In this document: piece after piece, positions 2,519-53,007 of the stretch
Numbering within the stretch: the first letter of the stretch is position 1
How the letters are laid out: the number at the start of each line of letters is the position of its first letter
IMG/VR virus record: IMGVR_UViG_3300037264_002228
Span: 34,444 to 98,443 of that record
Source of the DNA: a virus
DNA length: 64,000 bases
Reading direction: 5' to 3' (one strand)
Translations under genes and position numbers: made by a program
Notes under the pieces: generated by a model
What the model was told of the DNA's origin: nothing
The model's input: only the letters and a program-made list of their open reading frames with translations
Databases searched by the model: none

Positions 2519-5500
2519 TGGCAGACATTAATACATACGCTCTTGGGTTAGAATTCCAAATGCAGACCAAGCCTGCTATGGAAGCTATGGGTCAATTGCT
2601 AGATATGGCTGCTAAACTACAAAACAAAATGTCGGCTGCTGCTGCGTCGTTGTCACCATCAGATACTGCATTAGAAGAAATAATTGATCTTACTGATCCG
2701 TTGGAAGCAATGGGTCTATTAACTGGTCAGCTAGAACGAAAAATGGATGATCTTGCGAAAGCTGAGCAATTTCTTGCATTGGCTACGTTTGAAAGCGAAC
2801 AAGCGGCGGCAGCTACAGAAGAAACAGTTTTTAAACTTAAACATGAAATTGATGATGTAAATGAGGCTGTAAAAAAGTTACATAAAACATGGGAAAAATG
2901 GCCGTACTTATTTGAAGAACATGATAAACAAATAAAGAACGCAACAAGAAATTTTGATATTAATAAGCGTTCAATCGATAGGCAACATAAATCATTAAAA
3001 GAACAAAGTGCAGTATTCTTAAGCGTGCGGAATGCAATACTTGGAGTCACTGAAGAAACTAAACAATTAAACAACATTATTACTGCAGGTCTTGGAAAAT
3101 ATGGTGCTCTTGCTGCGGCTCTTGCATTTATTGGAATTGGCTTCAAAGATGTAATGGAAATGCAAGATACTTATGCTAAAGTTACATTTACTGCAATAGG
3201 TGGTCAAACGGCATTAATAGCTAGCACTAACAGACTACGTGCAACAACTGGTGCGTCTTCAAAAGAAGCAATTAAAGCATTAACGGCGCTTGCTGAGGTT
3301 GGGTTTAGAGCAGAACACAATATTTCTGCATTAGCAGATGCTAATTATAAGTTTAGTAAAGCAACTGGTGTATCAGAGTCAATAACAGCACAATTCCAGC
3401 GACAAATTGTCGCGATGGGTGGCAGCGCAAACATGGCTAAAAACAGTTTGGCGGCTATGTCTGCGATTATTAGAAACAGCGGATTGACGGCAAAAGAAGC
3501 TGAGTCATTAATGAGCGGATTTAGCAAAACGATGTTACGTATGGCATTATTTGGCAAAACCAAAGAAGATTTTGCAGCAACAACTACTGAATTAGGTAAG
3601 CTATCTGGCGCATTTAAAATGGCAGGTGGTAGTGCTGAGTCTGTTAATCAACAATTTGGTAAAATGCTAGAAGATCCACTTGAAATGGCTATTGCATTAG
3701 GAAAATTAGATATTGAGATGGATGAAAATGCAAGCATGCATGAAAAAATGCAGGCTTACATGAAGGGCACTTCTGCTATTCTAGCTGAAACAGCTGGGAT
3801 GACAGATATAGAAAGACAGAAAACACTAGAGGCTAGAGGTGTTAATTTAGATTATGCTGCTTCGTTTGTGTTGCTTGAACAAGAATTGTTAAAAACCGGC
3901 AAAACACAAGAACAATACTTAAAAGGAGTGGCTGCTGCGCCAGATATTAATAAAGATTGGCAGACAGCCACAAGTACATTAACTGAACAACTAAAACAAA
4001 TACTGACACCTATAATGAATATAGCTTCGACTATTGGTTCTGTATTAGTGCCAGCTGCAACTAAATTGGCTAGTGTGGTGTCATATTTAACTACCACGTT
4101 TGGAAAATGGTGGAGCGATTTACAAACGAATTCACCGATTTTAGCTAACATTATATCAGCTGTAGCTGTTGGTGCTATTGGATTTCTTGCATTTGGTGCA
4201 GTAGCAAGCAAATTAATTGGTATGTTTTCACCATTGACAAATGCTATTAAGGCCGTGTTGAATCCAATAGAACAAGTTAATAAAACGATGGATGTGGCGC
4301 AGAAAGCCTCATCATCTGCCGGATTGGGAGTTAAAACATTTTTAACGAATTTGGGTCAAGGCTTAAAGGCACTAGCAGCACCTGGCGCATTACAAGGTGC
4401 TTTAATATTGGGTGTATTGGCAGTTATTGTTGGTGGAACATTGTTGGCATTGGCCATTGCGATGAAGGAATTGGGAATTAGCGTCGGAGAACTTGTTGGC
4501 GCATCTGTTGGATTATTGATAGCTGCAGGTGCATTTTATGTTATGGCTGCTGCACTTGCTGTTCTAGGTCCAGTATCTGCGATAGCGGCTCCATTATTAT
4601 TACCATTAGCTGTTGTATTCTTAGCCATTGGTGCCGCTGTCCTTTTAGCTAGTATTGGCGTATCATTAATGGCGTTGGCTTTCACGGAATTATTTAAAGC
4701 AATACTGCCACAAGCACCAATGTTTGTTATGATTATGGCATCAATGGCTATTTTAATGCCCGCCCTAGCAATTGGGTTTGGCTTGTTGGCTGCATCATTA
4801 GCTATTTCTGCTCCGATTATTTTGATCGGATTCGGTGCATTATTGGTAGCAGCATTAATGGGTTTTATTATAAATCCGGTACTAGAACGATTTGCGAATA
4901 GTTTGAGCCTTATTTCGAGCGCAATGTCTGGGCTTGGTGCTGGTGCTGGTGTGTCATTGCTAAGTTTAGCTATTGGCATAACGGCTTTCATGGCTTCGTT
5001 GATGGGAATTGCTGTTGGTGGTGGTATAGGATCATTGTTCGGTGTTAAGAATCCAGTACAACAAGCAGCAGAAATCGGTGCTGCAATGTTTTTAGTTGCA
5101 GCACCAGCCGCAATGCTATCAAATGCATTAGGAAAATTATCTGACATTGGCGATATATTTAAACCGTTTATTGATAGTGTGCTTGGTCGTAAAAACGAAA
5201 TAGCAGAGGCAGTATCATTTATATCATCAATAGCAACACAAATTGAACTTGCAAGAAAAACTATTAATGGAGCCACAGCTGGTGTTGGATTAATAATTCC
5301 AGTTAAGTTTGCAGAACCAGTACGTAAACCAATAATTACTGAAGACACTGCACGCAAGATCCGTGAAGAGCGTAATCAGTCAAATCTTGTTCGTGGTACT
5401 GAAGACATGAAAAACGCTATAGATAAAGTAACTAATCGTTTAGATAAGGGTGCAGGCATTGGTGAATTAGTTGAATTGTTAAAAATATGGCTACCTAAGA

Positions 5501-35664: not shown

Positions 35665-35967
35665 ATGATGCTGATTATAGGATGTGACAATTGTAATATG
35701 AGCGACAATGGGTTACATATGAAATTAGAATTTAGGCATGTTAATAAATTTTGCAAAACATGCAATCATGATGAAACTACAATTTGGAATTATTATTTCT
35801 GTAATAGTGCGTGCATGTTCAATTGGCTAAGCCATCATGATGTTGAACAAAAAGGAGTTCCATGTAGAGATTGTAGAAATATTCAATCTGAACCGACTGG
35901 ATTTCTTTTCGGATTTAAAGAAAATGGAGTTTGTACATCTTGTAATGGTGTTAAGAGTGTAAAATGA
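35665..35967 (+). CDS. Cys-rich zinc-binding protein
   Basis: Four CxxC pairs plus FCNSAC; GAGG RBS. Confidence 0.6.
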   Translation: MMLIIGCDNCNMSDNGLHMKLEFRHVNKFCKTCNHDETTIWNYYFCNSACMFNWLSHHDVEQKGVPCRDCRNIQSEPTGFLFGFKENGVCTSCNGVKSVK

Positions 35968-36608
35968 TTAATTGGACATATAATCCAACAAAGGATGAGT
36001 TAGAATATTGCCTAAAAGTGTCTAAGTTTCGAGAGAACATGCAATCAGCAAGACCAGAAAATAAAAACAAAAAACGATCTAAAGAGGGCATAGTTGATTC
36101 AATTTGTAATGGCGTAGTTGGTGCTCTAGGTGAATTAGCAGTCTCGAGAATCACTGGGATCAGGTGGGACGGAGCAATGTTGAATGATAAGCAATTTGAT
36201 GTTTGGAATATGAAATGTGCAGACATTGGACCATTTGAAGTTAAGACAATAAGTTATAAAAGCGGAAACTTTGTGCTTAATGATAACGATAAGGATTGGG
36301 CTATTGGGCTATTGGCATACGCACCAAATGCTAGAAATGAAGTTGGATTGCAACTATATAAAGGTAAGCTAGTAAAAATCAAACCATCTGTAATAATATT
36401 GGGTTATTTGCCAGTTGATAAAGCCAAAGCAATGGTTGAGCCACAAGTTAATATGTTTAATAGTGGTAAGTTTAAAATTAAGTATATTGTAACACAAGAC
36501 AAATTAAAACCAGTTTCACGACTAAACAGAATTGTTTTGGGATTAAGAAGTAGAGATAAAACCAAACCAGTGGATATTAAAGGCTGGCCGCCATTTTACG
36601 TTGAATAG
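35964..36608 (+). CDS. putative PD-(D/E)XK nuclease-like protein
   Basis: GALGELAV ... ADIG.FEVKT pattern. Confidence 0.45.
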   Translation: MINWTYNPTKDELEYCLKVSKFRENMQSARPENKNKKRSKEGIVDSICNGVVGALGELAVSRITGIRWDGAMLNDKQFDVWNMKCADIGPFEVKTISYKSGNFVLNDNDKDWAIGLLAYAPNARNEVGLQLYKGKLVKIKPSVIILGYLPVDKAKAMVEPQVNMFNSGKFKIKYIVTQDKLKPVSRLNRIVLGLRSRDKTKPVDIKGWPPFYVE

Positions 36609-36808
36609 TCACTCTTGCTCCACGCGATCCATCCTTCATTATCGATGATGTCGCTGACATGTTTAACAGCTGTGTGCTTGGTCGATTTTTTATACCAAAA
36701 TTTATTACTAGAATTATACACAAACTTATTTCTCTTTAGCCACTTCACAACAGTTCGAAAGTTTGATTTGTAATCTCTGCAAGTCGTGGCTACAACGAAT
36801 TTTGGCAT
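36596..36808 (-). CDS. hypothetical protein
   Basis: 70 aa with AGGAG RBS on the minus strand. Confidence 0.55.
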   Translation of the reverse strand: MPKFVVATTCRDYKSNFRTVVKWLKRNKFVYNSSNKFWYKKSTKHTAVKHVSDIIDNEGWIAWSKSDYST

Positions 36809-41719: not shown

Positions 41720-41972
41720 ATGGATAAATGAATATGATACTAGTCAATTTTGGTTCATAGAAAATGATGTCATTTGTTGCTGGCCAACAGGATGGGAACG
41801 TCCAGTTGCTGTATTTGTGATTGATGGATATATTATAAAATCTTTAGAATTAGGCGTAGTAATAAGAAATAATCTAAAAGAAGAATATTCAGTCTATGAC
41901 CCGAACTTTTTTCAGGATTTACAACATTCTTTGATGATACATAAAGCAGCATACACTAGAATAATATTATGA
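41694..41972 (+). CDS. small paralog-family protein
   Basis: MELLDILIKWI ... SVYDPNFFQDL. Confidence 0.55.
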   Translation: MELLDILIKWINEYDTSQFWFIENDVICCWPTGWERPVAVFVIDGYIIKSLELGVVIRNNLKEEYSVYDPNFFQDLQHSLMIHKAAYTRIIL

Positions 41973-42745
41973 ATAAATTGTTATTTATTGGTGGCCCATG
42001 TGTCATAGAATCAGAACAACATGCTATGAGGCATGCATCAGCCATAAAAGATATATGTACAAAATTAGACATAGATTTTATTTATAAAAGTTCCTATGAT
42101 AAAGCTAATAGGACGTCTGGCGAAACTTATCGAGGCCCAGGTTTAATTGATGGTTTATACATATTGAATAAAATTAAACATGAAATTGGCGTTAAGATAT
42201 TGACTGATGTCCATTCTGTTGATGAAGTGAAGTCTGCTGCGGTTGTAGTTGACGTGCTTCAAATTCCAGCATTGTTATGTCGTCAGACAGATTTAGTATT
42301 GGCTGCTTCGAGTACTCACAAAATAGTAAACATCAAAAAGGGCCAATTCATGGACCCATTGGCTATGAGGCATATATTAAAGAAAGCCTTATCAACTGGT
42401 AATAATAATATATGGTTATGTGAGCGTGGTACTACGTTTGGTTATAATAATTTAGTAGTTGATATGCGTTCAATACCAATAATGAAATCTTTTGGTTGCA
42501 AAGTAATAATGGATGCTGGACATGCAGTGCAACAGCCCGGTGGTCTTGGTAATGCATCCGGTGGGATGCGAGATATGATTCCGACGATGGCTCGTTGTGG
42601 TATCGCGGCTGGTGCTGATGGGTTGTTTATTGAAGTCCATGAAAATCCAGATGCTGGCCTAAGTGATGGACCGAATATGCTTAGATTAGATGATCTTGAA
42701 TCATTACTACGCCAAGCAAAAGAAATGAAAAATTTGCTCCTGTAG
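41969..42745 (+). CDS. kdsA: KDO 8-phosphate synthase
   Basis: GPCVIES, KSSYDKANRTS, TDVH, QIPA.LCRQT, KKGQF, ERG..FGYNNLVVD, H.VQQPG, SDG. Confidence 0.95.
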   Translation: MNKLLFIGGPCVIESEQHAMRHASAIKDICTKLDIDFIYKSSYDKANRTSGETYRGPGLIDGLYILNKIKHEIGVKILTDVHSVDEVKSAAVVVDVLQIPALLCRQTDLVLAASSTHKIVNIKKGQFMDPLAMRHILKKALSTGNNNIWLCERGTTFGYNNLVVDMRSIPIMKSFGCKVIMDAGHAVQQPGGLGNASGGMRDMIPTMARCGIAAGADGLFIEVHENPDAGLSDGPNMLRLDDLESLLRQAKEMKNLLL

Positions 42746-42809
42746 CCTATCGGTGAGGCAGGGATCTCTAAAATCTCATAGGTGAGTTCGACTCTCATCA
42801 GGAGCGCCA
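42736..42809 (+). tRNA. amber suppressor tRNA, anticodon CUA
   Basis: Acceptor GCTCCTG/CAGGAGC + G73 + CCA; D stem GCCT/AGGC with GG; anticodon stem GGGAT/ATCTC around loop CT-CTA-AA; T arm GTGAG-TTCGACT-CTCAT. Confidence 0.9.
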
Positions 42810-42814
42810 ATTTT

Positions 42815-43102
42815 ATGACGATATTATCAATAATCACTGTAGTATTTGCTACAGTGTTTATAGCATATTTCTTAATAAGTTGGGCAGATAGTAGACCTTG
42901 TTCTTATTGCAGCAACATGAGAGATCAACTAAAAGAAAGAATGCCACATTGTGATGGATGCGACAACATTGCAGATGTATATTATTGTACCACCTGTATT
43001 AAGAAGTTATTTAAAAAGCGCACACCTAGAATACGTAAATTTCTACAATTATTGCGTAGTATTAAAAAAATAAGACGTAGTGATGACGAGAAAAATATAT
43101 AA
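42815..43102 (+). CDS. membrane-anchored Cys-rich protein
   Basis: TM helix, then three CxxC pairs and a basic tail; ATG just after the tRNA. Confidence 0.55.
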   Translation: MTILSIITVVFATVFIAYFLISWADSRPCSYCSNMRDQLKERMPHCDGCDNIADVYYCTTCIKKLFKKRTPRIRKFLQLLRSIKKIRRSDDEKNI

Positions 43103-43115
43103 TATGGAGGCAATT

Positions 43116-43472
43116 ATGACATAGGGTACACATTTTTACGTGGTGGTAAGGGCAGATCTATCTATTCCTCAACAGCTTTGTCAAGCTGTTCACGCCGCTC
43201 ATGAATCGGGCATCCGGTTCGGCAACCCAAACGATATTTCATCAGTTGTTGTTTGTAGTGTCCCTGATGAAACCAGTCTATTATTAGAACAAGAAAAGGT
43301 TGAATCTAAAGGTATAAAGACTATACTATTTAGAGAACCGGACATAAACAACCAAGCTACAGCATTTGCTACAGAGTTAATCCCTAGCAATTATCGTAAG
43401 GTGTTTTCTAAGCTTGTTTTATGGAAAGGAAATGATTATGTTAGAAACAAGGAGGAATGTTATGGATCCTAA
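43116..43472 (+). CDS. Pth2-like peptidyl-tRNA hydrolase with in-frame TAG at codon 3
   Basis: GGAGG (43106-43110) then ATG ACA TAG GGT ACA CAT TTT TAC GTG in frame with ORF 43140..43472; FYVVVRADL..Q..Q.VHAA..FREPD.NNQ.TA.A is a PTH2-family pattern. Confidence 0.75.
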
Positions 43473-43773
43473 GATTTTTAAATTGAAGGAACACATTAAG
43501 AAGCTGGCTTCGGAACAGAAGCTTCTTAAAATGGCTCGTAAGACAAAATTGCCAAAAGATAAGTGGGAAGATATTAGAATATCTTTAGGTAAGAGTAAAG
43601 ATTGGACGCCAATATACGCTGCATGTGAAGCATATGTAAATACTATTCGTATTACAGCGTGTCTAAATTTGTATCATGAATTACGTGGAAGCGAATTTAG
43701 ACATAATGCCAATATTGATGAGTATTATTATAGCAAATGTTTAAAAGAAGAACGAGATTTATTGAATAAGTAA
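43462..43773 (+). CDS. hypothetical basic helical protein coupled to the Pth-like gene
   Basis: GGAGG at 43451 before ATG 43462; overlaps the end of the Pth-like ORF. Confidence 0.6.
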   Translation: MDPKIFKLKEHIKKLASEQKLLKMARKTKLPKDKWEDIRISLGKSKDWTPIYAACEAYVNTIRITACLNLYHELRGSEFRHNANIDEYYYSKCLKEERDLLNK

Positions 43774-51916: not shown

Positions 51917-52699
51917 ATGTTAGAATTTTTTATAGACAATTTAGACAATATTACAACAAAAGCTATTGTAGATGAATATGGTAATGAGCTAACTAAAGAG
52001 AATAAATTAAAGCCGTACACATCAATTACTAGAGAAGAAGCTATATCACAATTGTCGCGTGATGCGATTAATTATAGATATTCTAAAATATATGTAAGTT
52101 CACTTACAAATGTATGCAAGTGTAGGTTCTGGAAACTATTTTGTAAACATAAAGAATATCAAGAATATGTTATGTGTTTAGATTGCGACAGTGAACTAAA
52201 TATGTTAGCTGCTGCTAGATATCTTAATATCTCAGGTATTGGGTATAGTATTATTAAAAGTAGTGAAGCAGGTGACTCAATTCCGAAGCCACCACAGCTC
52301 GGTCCACAATGGCCGCAAGGCATACAGGGACCACAGTTGTTTATACAAGCCGTACAAGTACCAACTGACCATTATTGGATTATCACAGATTTTGTAAGTG
52401 ATTTAATGTCTGTAGCAAATAAAATGAAATCAATACCGGGTGTTGACCATCGTTATGCAAATTGTGTTTTTTATAGAAAAACTGTTCTGTTGCGAGCTTA
52501 TCCTAAAGACGATAAGATGCCAATATTTCCAGATTCGCATAGTTTAACGAATACATTAGCAGTTAAGTGGTACGAATCTTTTAAGAATTATTGGTTATCG
52601 AAAGATATGGTCAGTTTAATGACTGCTAGAGAACTACAATTAGCACTTGTTAATGGGAACATCAAAACAATGATTATGAATCCTAATTTCGTAGTTTAG
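51917..52699 (+). CDS. hypothetical protein
   Basis: 260 aa ORF with GPQ mini-repeats. Confidence 0.55.
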   Translation: MLEFFIDNLDNITTKAIVDEYGNELTKENKLKPYTSITREEAISQLSRDAINYRYSKIYVSSLTNVCKCRFWKLFCKHKEYQEYVMCLDCDSELNMLAAARYLNISGIGYSIIKSSEAGDSIPKPPQLGPQWPQGIQGPQLFIQAVQVPTDHYWIITDFVSDLMSVANKMKSIPGVDHRYANCVFYRKTVLLRAYPKDDKMPIFPDSHSLTNTLAVKWYESFKNYWLSKDMVSLMTARELQLALVNGNIKTMIMNPNFVV

Positions 52700-53007
52700 T
52701 TTGTATCTTCATATTCATCTTCATTTTTTAAGAACATCTTTGTTGTAGTTAAAGCATCATCAATTGCTGTTGCTAATATTTTCATGCTATTTGGATCTGC
52801 TAAGTCGATTTTTTCCGGAAAATGTCTGCCATTTTTGATTGTCAATATGGGTCCATCTCCTTCAACAATACACCAACGTGCTCCTATTTGTATTCTATCG
52901 TCTCTAATCCAGATCTGGTTTTGATTGTCTATTGTCGTCACTGTGACATGATTGATACCAATCATTTGCAATGCATATTTTACGTATAATACAATTGTTT
53001 TGTCCAT
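52696..53007 (-). CDS. small paralog-family protein
   Basis: IDLADPNSMKILATAI. Confidence 0.55.
   Translation of the reverse strand: MDKTIVLYVKYALQMIGINHVTVTTIDNQNQIWIRDDRIQIGARWCIVEGDGPILTIKNGRHFPEKIDLADPNSMKILATAIDDALTTTKMFLKNEDEYEDTN

What the first reader, a model, noticed from the sequence alone, without database searches (positions are those of the whole stretch)
42736..43472. Amber-gated peptidyl-tRNA hydrolase next to its own amber suppressor tRNA
Seen: the Pth2-like ORF has a GGAGG (43106-43110) 5 nt before ATG 43116, and the frame reads ATG-ACA-TAG-GGT-ACA-CAT-TTT-TAC-GTG (M-T-stop-G-T-H-F-Y-V-V-V-R-A-D-L). The GTG start in the ORF track has no comparable SD and clips the first beta strand (xYxVVRxDL) of the PTH2 fold. 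A complete tRNA with anticodon CUA ends about 300 nt upstream on the same strand. Known: Pth frees tRNA from dropped-off peptidyl-tRNA; two-codon minigenes such as lambda bar promote drop-off; RF2 controls its own synthesis through an internal stop. Inference: full-length Pth is made only when the charged suppressor outcompetes RF1, giving a translational switch that senses termination capacity, suppressor level or infection stage. Without readthrough the message acts as an fMet-Thr minigene. This is the best candidate for an undescribed system in the window.
Basis: partly seen in the sequence, partly recalled or inferred. Interest (0 to 1): 0.95.

Follow-up and report, generated by a model that had tools for sequence, protein, structure and literature searches.

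The report
Suppressor-tRNA-gated phage Pth2-like gene
A large phage that otherwise uses the normal genetic code puts the stop codon UAG at codon 3 of a small tRNA-hydrolase-like gene and carries its own UAG-reading tRNA 306 bases upstream. Dozens of distant phages, several lab-grown, keep this pairing, so the protein is probably made only when that tRNA overrides the stop.

Summary
GGAGG (43106-43110), ATG 43116, ACA and TAG 43122-43124 are in frame with a PTH2-fold ORF that ends at 43472. A normal-looking tRNA(CUA) lies at 42736-42809 on the same strand.

The early TAG is conserved. 36 of 55 distinct homologue loci have SD-ATG, 0-12 codons, then TAG. The stop is always TAG, always in frame, and always followed by a purine, a context reported to favour suppression. 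19 of these loci have no ATG/GTG/TTG between the TAG and the conserved core, so read-through is obligatory there.

The loci include the cultured phages GAP32, Serratia BF, ME3, RsoM2USA and XacN1, where the gene is unannotated or truncated in GenBank. These genomes are not globally recoded.

The gate codon covaries with the suppressor. Atu_ph07 carries only tRNA(UCA) and has an early TGA. Its 72%-identical orthologue in phage Phosso, which carries tRNA(CUA), has an early TAG.

Nothing here is experimental. Charging of the tRNA, enzyme activity and the purpose of the gate are inferred, and the minigene and "termination sensor" ideas remain speculation.

I found no paper describing this. The XacN1 authors state they could not find targets for their suppressor tRNAs. 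This scan has already flagged the same module on other DNA (279 notes).

The parts
42736..42809 (+). amber suppressor tRNA, anticodon CUA (loop CUCUAAA), G73, CCA encoded
   Evidence: ARAGORN; Rfam RF00005 53.9 bits
42815..43102 (+). 95-aa ORF between the tRNA and the gated gene (N-terminal hydrophobic helix, Cys-rich). It is a spacer gene, not conserved in the relatives.
   Evidence: ORF list; no Pfam, PHROG or NCBIfam family; no tblastn match in related loci
43106..43110 (+). Shine-Dalgarno GGAGG, 5 nt before the ATG
   Evidence: sequence; 31 of 36 gated loci have an SD-like motif before the upstream ATG
43116..43118 (+). inferred true start codon ATG
   Evidence: in frame with the ORF, good SD; the same layout is seen in homologues
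43122..43125 (+). gate: in-frame TAG at codon 3 plus the +4 purine (G)
   Evidence: sequence; TAG and a +4 purine in 36 of 36 gated loci
43116..43472 (+). full PTH2-fold ORF (118 codons if TAG is decoded, stop TAA 43470-43472)
   Evidence: AlphaFold pLDDT 84.3; the Foldseek top 13 hits are PTH2/Bit1 chains plus Atu0240, TM 0.64-0.73; Pfam PTH2 in 25 of 36 family members
43140..43142 (+). GTG used as the start by standard ORF calling; it lies inside strand beta1
43462..43773 (+). conserved downstream partner gene (103 aa, four helices, motif ITAxLNxYHELRGSxYRH); its start overlaps the end of the gated gene by 11 nt
   Evidence: tblastn hits just downstream of the Pth2-like gene in 12 loci; AlphaFold pLDDT 94.4; no PDB fold match
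41969..42745 (+). kdsA-like gene (DAHP_synth_1); its TAG stop (42743-42745) lies inside the tRNA gene (context only)

Best explanation
This is a conserved phage module in which translation of a divergent PTH2-fold gene is gated by an amber codon at the very start of the reading frame.

Proposed mechanism: ribosomes start at SD-ATG 43116 and meet UAG at codon 3. If host RF1 wins, only a dipeptide is made. If the phage's own tRNA(CUA), encoded 306 nt upstream and probably on the same transcript, decodes the UAG, the full 118-residue protein is made.

Shown by sequence comparison: the early in-frame TAG is kept across deep divergence; its context is the one reported to favour suppression; many homologues have no other possible start; the phages are otherwise standard-code; and the gate codon matches the anticodon of the phage's suppressor.

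Inferred: the tRNA is expressed and charged. The amino acid probably differs between phages and is irrelevant, because the site lies in the variable N-terminus. The product acts on acylated tRNA 3' ends. The gate ties production of this enzyme to suppressor activity, either as feed-forward (the enzyme is made only while stops are being read through) or as negative feedback on read-through.
For: 1. Recurrence. 36 of 55 distinct homologue loci have SD-ATG, 0-12 codons, then TAG in frame. No TAA or TGA mini-ORF of this kind was seen. TAG ends only 15% of ordinary genes pooled over four genomes.

2. No alternative start. 19 of 31 simple gates have no ATG, GTG or TTG between the TAG and the conserved R-x-D-L.

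3. Context. The +4 base is a purine in 36 of 36 gates, against 92 of 193 ordinary TAG terminators (Fisher 7e-11; binomial against 0.65, 2e-7). A +4 purine raises amber suppression (PMC6266110, citing Bossi 1980 and 1983).

4. tRNA presence. A tRNA(CUA) lies inside the fetched flanks (2-3 kb each side) in 18 of 36 gated loci, mostly upstream on the same strand. Every genome I inspected myself that carries a TAG gate has at least one: G000, G001, GAP32, RsoM2USA and Phosso. For XacN1 the paper reports two.

5. Covariation. Atu_ph07 has only tRNA(UCA), and its Pth2 gene reads SD-ATG-5 codons-TGA-A with no start codon for 32 codons. The 72%-identical Phosso orthologue reads ATG-AAG-TAT-TAG-G, and Phosso has two tRNA(CUA) and no UCA among the 55 of its 59 tRNA matches that I examined.

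6. Not global recoding. The 98-kb contig is 96% covered by standard-code ORFs, and other TAG junctions are followed by ordinary starts. The same holds for the complete 395-kb relative G001. A genome-wide scan for early-stop genes picks out only this gene in GAP32 and RsoM2USA.

7. Position follows the start, not the domain. In the fused forms (XacN1 ORF364, Xoo-sp13, RAS14, L017, L021) the TAG sits after the ATG of the whole two-domain ORF, 189 codons before the Pth2 core.

8. Phylogeny. On the tree the gate is spread over the whole family and is lost mainly in one clade.

9. The N-terminal extension belongs to the fold. Strand beta1 spans residues 5-12, and codons after the TAG vary synonymously between loci.
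Against: There is no experimental evidence of any kind. Expression, charging and identity of the tRNA are unknown.

In this window GTG codons lie 5-6 codons after the TAG, so a truncated protein could be made without read-through.

Fused forms have an ATG 4 codons after the TAG, and the mycobacteriophage forms have a GTG directly after it with better SD spacing. In those lineages reinitiation or a plain start is as good an explanation.

TAG ends about 15% of the ORFs in this contig, including kdsA next door, and about 32% in G001. An efficient suppressor should therefore be costly.

The TGA/UCA covariation rests on one pair of phages.

Database relatives P0002, P0005 and P0010 read Q at the gate position. 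They may carry TAG called under code 15, or a real sense codon.

The TAG was not checked in raw reads.
Confidence: 0.75

Rival explanations
1. Upstream mini-ORF with termination and reinitiation. The ATG-ACA-TAG is a two-codon leader ORF. Ribosomes terminate at the TAG and restart at GTG 43140 (or at nearby non-canonical codons in relatives). The suppressor tRNA plays no part.
For: The window has GTG codons 5 and 6 codons after the TAG. Fused forms have an ATG 4 codons after the TAG. Mycobacteriophages IkeLoa and Myrna have a GTG right after the TAG with ideal SD spacing.
Against: 19 gated loci have no ATG, GTG or TTG before the conserved core. Reinitiation does not require the stop to be TAG, the mini-ORF to be in frame, or the +4 base to be a purine, yet all three hold in 36 of 36 loci. 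The gate codon follows the suppressor anticodon in Atu_ph07 and Phosso. A GTG start would remove half of strand beta1.
Confidence: 0.12
2. Part of a wider code change. The phage reads TAG as a sense codon in many genes (code 15-like, as in Lak and crAss-like phages), perhaps in the 77% of the genome not in this contig. This TAG would then be just one of them.
For: Phage suppressor tRNAs are typical of recoded phages (bioRxiv 10.1101/2021.08.26.457843). The contig is only about 23% of the genome. Prevotella (Lak-type) phages also carry homologues.
Against: No other convincing in-frame TAG occurs in 98 kb. The complete relatives G001, GAP32 and RsoM2USA use TAG as an ordinary terminator and show no other early-TAG gene. 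A random sense TAG would not hold the same position just after the start across the family.
Confidence: 0.05
3. Broken gene or assembly error. The TAG is a nonsense mutation or a sequencing error in a decaying gene.
For: Raw reads were not checked. The Pfam score is below the family cut-off.
Against: The same feature is found in 35 other independent assemblies, including finished genomes of cultured phages. The rest of the ORF is intact and folds confidently.
Confidence: 0.02

Closest known systems
Stop-codon-recoded phages with their own suppressor tRNAs (TAG read as Gln, 'code 15'; Borges et al., bioRxiv 10.1101/2021.08.26.457843)
   Same: A phage-encoded tRNA(CUA) reads an in-frame TAG in a phage gene inside a standard-code host. 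The proposed purpose is control of when a gene is translated.
   Different: Here the genomes are otherwise standard-code and TAG still ends many genes. One gene family carries the TAG, at a fixed place right after the start codon. That paper does not mention a hydrolase.
prfB (RF2) autoregulation through an early in-frame UGA
   Same: A translation-factor-like gene carries an early in-frame stop codon, so its own synthesis depends on how that stop is handled.
   Different: prfB needs a +1 frameshift, and the stop is read by its own product. Here the frame is unchanged, a dedicated tRNA reads the stop, and no link between the product and UAG recognition is shown. I looked for a frameshift version and did not find support.
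Archaeal/eukaryotic peptidyl-tRNA hydrolase Pth2 (Pfam PF01981; PDB 1wn2, 3erj, 2zv3, 1q7s, 1xty)
   Same: Same alpha/beta fold (Foldseek probability 1.00, TM 0.64-0.73). Shared motifs: the R-x-D-L strand, Q-x-x-H-A helix and E-P-D...A-T-A region.
   Different: The window protein scores 16.8 bits, below the Pfam cut-off of 23. The lysine of the canonical G-K motif aligns to Gln. The clade has its own invariant H-A-A-H-E motif. Several of these phages also carry an ungated canonical Pth2.
Lambda bar minigenes and Pth limitation
   Same: A strong SD, AUG, one sense codon and a stop, the layout that promotes peptidyl-tRNA drop-off (my own knowledge; not tested here).
   Different: bar minigenes are stand-alone and toxic in pth-defective hosts. 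Here the mini-ORF is in frame with, and continuous with, a hydrolase-like gene, and in relatives it ranges from 1 to 13 codons.
Synthetic amber-gated gene circuits (suppressor tRNA plus a gene carrying amber codons, as in genetic-code-expansion work and engineered logic gates; from my own knowledge)
   Same: Output protein appears only when both the mRNA and the suppressor tRNA are present.
   Different: This one is natural, ancient and tied to one gene family.

Membership tests
Pth2 peptidyl-tRNA hydrolase (PF01981) | Pfam score above the gathering cut-off (23 bits) | tested here: not met
   The window protein scores 16.8 bits, E 0.008, and only with the N-terminal extension. 25 of 36 family members match at E<=0.1, best 2.7e-9.
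Pth2 peptidyl-tRNA hydrolase (PF01981) | Pth2/Bit1 alpha/beta fold | tested here: met
   AlphaFold pLDDT 84.3. The Foldseek top 13 PDB hits are Pth2/Bit1 chains plus Atu0240, probability 1.00, TM 0.64-0.73.
Pth2 peptidyl-tRNA hydrolase (PF01981) | Lysine of the G-K motif before the Q-x-x-H-A helix (catalytic role recalled from memory, not verified in a paper here) | tested here: not met
   In the profile alignment to PDB 24bt_A the G-K-K of the solved enzyme pairs with a-q-q of this clade (window P18-Q19-Q20). That alignment is weak (E 0.15).
Pth2 peptidyl-tRNA hydrolase (PF01981) | Acidic residue of the D-A-G-x-T motif | tested here: inconclusive
   It aligns to the invariant E74 (with D76 also invariant) in F-R-E-P-D.
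Pth2 peptidyl-tRNA hydrolase (PF01981) | Hydrolysis of peptidyl- or N-acyl-aminoacyl-tRNA | not testable with these tools
   Needs an enzyme assay or complementation of pth(ts).
Amber suppressor tRNA | Canonical cloverleaf tRNA with anticodon CUA | tested here: met
   ARAGORN; Rfam tRNA 53.9 bits against a cut-off of 29.
Amber suppressor tRNA | Expressed, aminoacylated and able to compete with RF1 | not testable with these tools
   Indirect only: gate codon and anticodon covary, and the +4 base is a purine.
Code-15 (TAG-recoded) phage | Many genes with internal TAG; poor coding density under the standard code | tested here: not met
   Standard-code ORFs cover 96% of the contig, and other TAG junctions are followed by ordinary starts. 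The same holds in G001, GAP32 and RsoM2USA.
prfB-type autoregulation | Early in-frame stop whose reading is set by the gene's own product, bypassed by a +1 frameshift | tested here: not met
   The stop is early and in frame, but no frameshift is needed. The candidate frameshift variants dissolved on inspection. The product's effect on UAG is not testable here.
bar-type minigene | SD-AUG-one codon-stop that causes drop-off and depends on Pth | not tested
   The layout is present in the sequence. The effect cannot be tested computationally.

The most novel reading that the evidence does not exclude
The module may be a self-contained homeostat for stop-codon read-through. In this reading the Pth2-like enzyme acts on the suppressor tRNA itself, or on ribosomes paused at UAG. 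Its own early UAG then closes a negative-feedback loop that sets how strongly the phage overrides amber stops during infection, which would be a tRNA-based counterpart of RF2 autoregulation. That would explain two things: why this one gene family carries the gate in so many lineages, and why even ungated copies sit next to tRNA(CUA) (5 of 19 loci).
Probability: 0.2. Interest if true: 0.9.

Novelty: new variant of a known kind. Interest (0 to 1): 0.75.

Why it matters
Many standard-code jumbo phages carry suppressor tRNAs whose targets are unknown. [quoted passage not shown] This module gives those tRNAs a concrete, conserved target: a natural gene switch made of a tRNA and one stop codon.

It is testable at once in cultured systems (GAP32, ME3, RsoM2USA, XacN1, Atu_ph07, Phosso).

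It shows how limited recoding can exist without a genome-wide code change, which may be a first step toward the recoded phages.

It also exposes a systematic annotation error. The gene is missing or truncated in GenBank records of Serratia BF, the Erwinia pEa_SNUABM phages, RsoM2USA, GAP32, Atu_ph07 and Phosso.

Tried and rejected
1. +1 frameshift at an early TGA. L028, L031 and L032 share TCCCATTGA, with an SD-ATG in the -1 frame. I rejected this because L031 and L032 have in-frame ATGs upstream and their nearest relatives start with a plain ATG. L028 and L033 still lack an obvious start.

2. Other TAG-bridged genes in the contig. The candidates were genome 22313-23743 and window 35964-36770, 51917-52921 and 4698-5045. 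No domain spans the TAG. For the first candidate an ordinary ATG start follows the TAG.

3. A second early-TAG gene in GAP32 (311460-311864). The PHROG profile starts at the downstream Met, so it is not gated.

4. RNA structure around the gate: z-score -0.08, nothing.

5. Megablast of the region against phage records: no match.

6. Complex prediction of the Pth2-like protein with the downstream partner: no verdict.

7. Foldseek of the partner against the PDB: no match.

9. Amino-acid identity of the tRNA. G73, G1-C72 and a short variable arm fit Gln, Glu or Trp types but do not decide. Discriminator bases differ among the phages' tRNA(CUA) genes.

10. Literature. Three searches found no description of the module. 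I also could not confirm the Pth2 catalytic residues in a paper.
Full report
**What is in the window**

The window is bases 34444-98443 of a 98,443-bp IMG/VR phage contig, 37% G+C. CheckV rates the contig about 23% complete, so it comes from a very large phage.

At the reported place the sequence reads GGAGG (43106-43110), CAATT, ATG (43116), ACA, TAG (43122-43124), GGT ACA CAT TTT TAC GTG (43140) and onward. The frame stays open to TAA at 43470-43472.

ARAGORN finds a 74-nt tRNA with anticodon CUA at 42736-42809 on the same strand. Rfam's tRNA model scores it 53.9 bits against a cut-off of 29. It has a normal T-loop, GG in the D-loop, G73 and an encoded CCA, so it is an ordinary-looking suppressor and not a pyrrolysine tRNA.

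Between the tRNA and the gene lies one 95-aa ORF (42815-43102) with no recognisable family. There is no +-strand terminator-like site in between.

**The N-terminal extension belongs to the protein**

Pfam PTH2 is detected only when the residues upstream of GTG 43140 are included (E 0.008, 16.8 bits, below the 23-bit cut-off). The GTG-start form gives no hit.

An AlphaFold model built on 36 homologues has mean pLDDT 84.3. It places strand beta1 at residues 5-12, so a GTG start at residue 9 would cut that strand in half.

The best 13 Foldseek matches in the PDB are Pth2/Bit1 structures (1wn2, 3erj, 2zv3, 1q7s, 1rlk, 1xty) plus Atu0240, at probability 1.00 and TM 0.64-0.73. 25 of 36 family members match Pfam PTH2 at E<=0.1.

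The protein is thus a divergent member of the Pth2 fold. It should not be called an active Pth. In the weak profile alignment to a solved Pth2, the G-K-K motif pairs with Q-Q. The clade also has its own invariant H-A-A-H-E and F-x-E-x-D motifs.

**The early TAG is conserved**

I collected homologue loci from four sources:
- IMG/VR
- GenBank phages
- one species-representative genome set
- the window itself

Of 55 distinct loci, 31 have an in-frame ATG, 0-12 codons, then TAG, lying 6-18 codons before the conserved R-x-D-L strand. An SD-like motif precedes that ATG in 26 of the 31.

Five more (XacN1 ORF364, Xoo-sp13, RAS14, L017, L021) have the same device at the start of a longer ORF, in which a domain of about 185 residues precedes the Pth2-like domain. 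The TAG therefore follows the translation start, not the Pth2 domain.

Further properties of the 36 gates:
- The stop is TAG in all 36, although TAG ends only about 15% of ordinary genes pooled over four of these genomes.
- The mini-ORF is in frame in all 36.
- The base after the TAG is a purine in all 36, against 92 of 193 ordinary TAG terminators (Fisher 7e-11). The binomial test against a generous 0.65 background gives 2e-7.
- 19 of the 31 simple gates have no ATG, GTG or TTG between the TAG and the conserved arginine, so the protein cannot be made there without decoding the TAG.

A +4 purine is the classical context that raises amber suppression. For supE a change from C to A gave a tenfold increase (PMC6266110, citing Bossi and Roth 1980 and Bossi 1983).

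On a maximum-likelihood tree the gate is spread through the whole family, with median terminal branch 0.35. It is missing mainly from one well-supported clade. An in-frame stop codon kept over that much divergence must be under selection.

**The matching tRNA**

A tRNA(CUA) lies inside the fetched flanks (2-3 kb on each side) in 18 of 36 gated loci, usually upstream on the same strand and in some cases only 42-72 nt before the TAG.

Whole genomes carrying a TAG gate:
- GAP32 has one tRNA(CUA) 2.8 kb downstream of the gene.
- RsoM2USA has one 13 kb away.
- G001 has two.
- Phosso has two.
- XacN1 is reported to have two.

Five of 19 ungated homologues also sit next to a tRNA(CUA). This hints that the protein and the tRNA are functionally linked beyond the gate.

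The discriminator bases of these tRNAs differ (G, A, U, C). The inserted amino acid is therefore probably not the same everywhere. That fits a gate in the variable N-terminus where residue identity does not matter. This is inference.

**Covariation**

Agrobacterium phage Atu_ph07 has a single suppressor tRNA, anticodon UCA, and no CUA (also PMC6102473).

One of its three Pth2 genes, a canonical one with the G-K motif, begins GAAAGG-7 nt-ATG ATT GGC GAA CAC TTT TGA A.... It has no canonical start for the next 32 codons, and the GenBank CDS begins at an internal Met after strand beta1.

Its 72%-identical orthologue in Sinorhizobium phage Phosso begins AGGAG-7 nt-ATG AAG TAT TAG G.... Phosso carries two tRNA(CUA) and no tRNA(UCA) among the 55 of its 59 tRNA matches that I examined.

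The gate codon thus changes with the anticodon. This is the strongest single argument that the suppressor decodes the gate. It rests on one pair of phages.

**Not a recoded genome**

Under the standard code, ORFs cover 96% of the contig. TAG ends 20 of 133 ORFs. The junctions where TAG joins two long open frames are followed by ordinary starts or show no domain spanning the TAG.

The complete, terminally repeated 395-kb relative G001 behaves the same way.

A scan for [quoted passage not shown] gives a few hits for each stop type. The hits include the Pth2-like gene in GAP32 and RsoM2USA and the TGA-gated Pth2 in Atu_ph07. The only other TAG hit in GAP32 is explained by a downstream Met.

**How it probably works**

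The best-supported reading is a suppressor-dependent gate. Without tRNA(CUA), RF1 ends translation after two residues. With it, the full protein is made.

Placing the stop at the extreme 5' end means that failure costs only a dipeptide and produces no truncated protein.

What the gate is for is not shown. Two readings fit:
- Feed-forward: the enzyme is needed only while stops are being overridden, for instance to recycle tRNAs from abortive or non-stop products. A tmRNA lies beside the module in L016, and G001 and RsoM2USA encode tmRNAs.
- Negative feedback: the enzyme limits the suppressor, which would protect the phage's own TAG-terminated genes.

**Rivals**

Termination and reinitiation at a downstream start is plausible for this window alone, and for the fused and mycobacteriophage forms. 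It does not explain the exclusive use of TAG, the frame, the +4 purine, the 19 loci without a start, or the covariation.

A pseudogene or sequencing error is excluded by the recurrence in finished genomes.

**Other features of the module**

A 103-aa gene that overlaps the end of the gated gene (43462-43773) is conserved just downstream in 12 loci. It folds confidently as four helices (pLDDT 94.4) with no PDB match.

**Known or new**

Three full-text searches found no description of an amber-gated Pth2 gene. The Borges et al. preprint on recoded phages does not mention a hydrolase. The XacN1 paper states that the targets of its suppressor tRNAs could not be identified.

In GenBank the gene is unannotated in Serratia BF, the Erwinia pEa_SNUABM phages and RsoM2USA. 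It is truncated in GAP32, Atu_ph07 and Phosso.

This scan has already reported the same module on other genomes: 279 notes in at least 198 genomes. One later check priced the bold "self-contained switch" reading at about 20%, because nothing is experimental and a strong suppressor should be costly. I share that caution for the purpose of the gate, but not for its existence.

**Limits**

Raw reads could not be checked. The DNA of the three closest database proteins that read Q at the gate could not be inspected.

Noticed in passing
window 42736-42745: The kdsA-like gene (41969-42745) ends with a TAG that lies inside the tRNA(CUA) gene. If RNase P cuts at the tRNA 5' end (42736), the kdsA message would lose its stop codon.
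   Followed up: no
window 43462-43773; L004, L005, L006, L007, L008, L010, L011, L013, L014, L015, L104, L105: A conserved small helical protein (motif ITAxLNxYHELRGSxYRH) follows the gated gene in 12 loci and overlaps its end in the window. It has no family and no PDB fold match.
   Followed up: partly
L112-L116, L118, L028, L031, L033, L117: Ungated Pth2-like genes of one clade sit directly beside tRNAs with unusual A34 anticodons: Phe-AAA (often two copies), Ile-AAU, His-AUG and Asp-AUC.
   Followed up: no
L008 3892-3971; L012 5267-5341 (G001 293620-293694); L031 2401-2477: ARAGORN draws these tRNA-like genes near the module with eight-base anticodon loops (four-base anticodons ccgg, aaac, tccg).
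   Followed up: no
L016 3795-4300: A phage tmRNA gene lies 54 nt after the tRNA(CUA), about 0.8 kb downstream of the gated gene. G001 and RsoM2USA also encode tmRNAs elsewhere in their genomes.
   Followed up: no
L058 1464-2303 (XacN1 ORF364), L063, L066, L017 2452-3300, L021: Fused form: a domain of about 185 residues containing an H-D-I-G-K-P motif precedes the Pth2-like domain. Pfam reports only PTH2 for it.
   Followed up: partly
L059 (Serratia BF), L062 (RsoM2USA), L060 (GAP32_397), L123 (Atu_ph07 AUZ95035.1), L149 (Phosso XYS97424.1): The GenBank records omit or truncate the gated gene, presumably because gene callers stop at the early TAG or TGA.
   Followed up: yes
L107 (Gemmataceae MAG contig of 1.64 Mb), L106, L108: The gated gene, with a tRNA(CUA) about 0.8 kb downstream in L107 and L108, also occurs on Planctomycete MAG contigs, one of chromosome size. 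It could be a prophage or a cellular copy.
   Followed up: no
L028 2960-3001; L033 2960-3001: These two homologues have an in-frame TGA shortly before the conserved core and no clear in-frame start codon. How they are translated is unresolved.
   Followed up: partly
L064 (IkeLoa) and L103 (Myrna), about 200 cluster C mycobacteriophages: The annotated 'peptidyl tRNA hydrolase' starts at a GTG immediately after ATG-TAG or GTG-TAG, and a tRNA(CUA) lies about 250 nt after the gene's end. It is unclear whether this is a relic gate or a start-stop element.
   Followed up: partly
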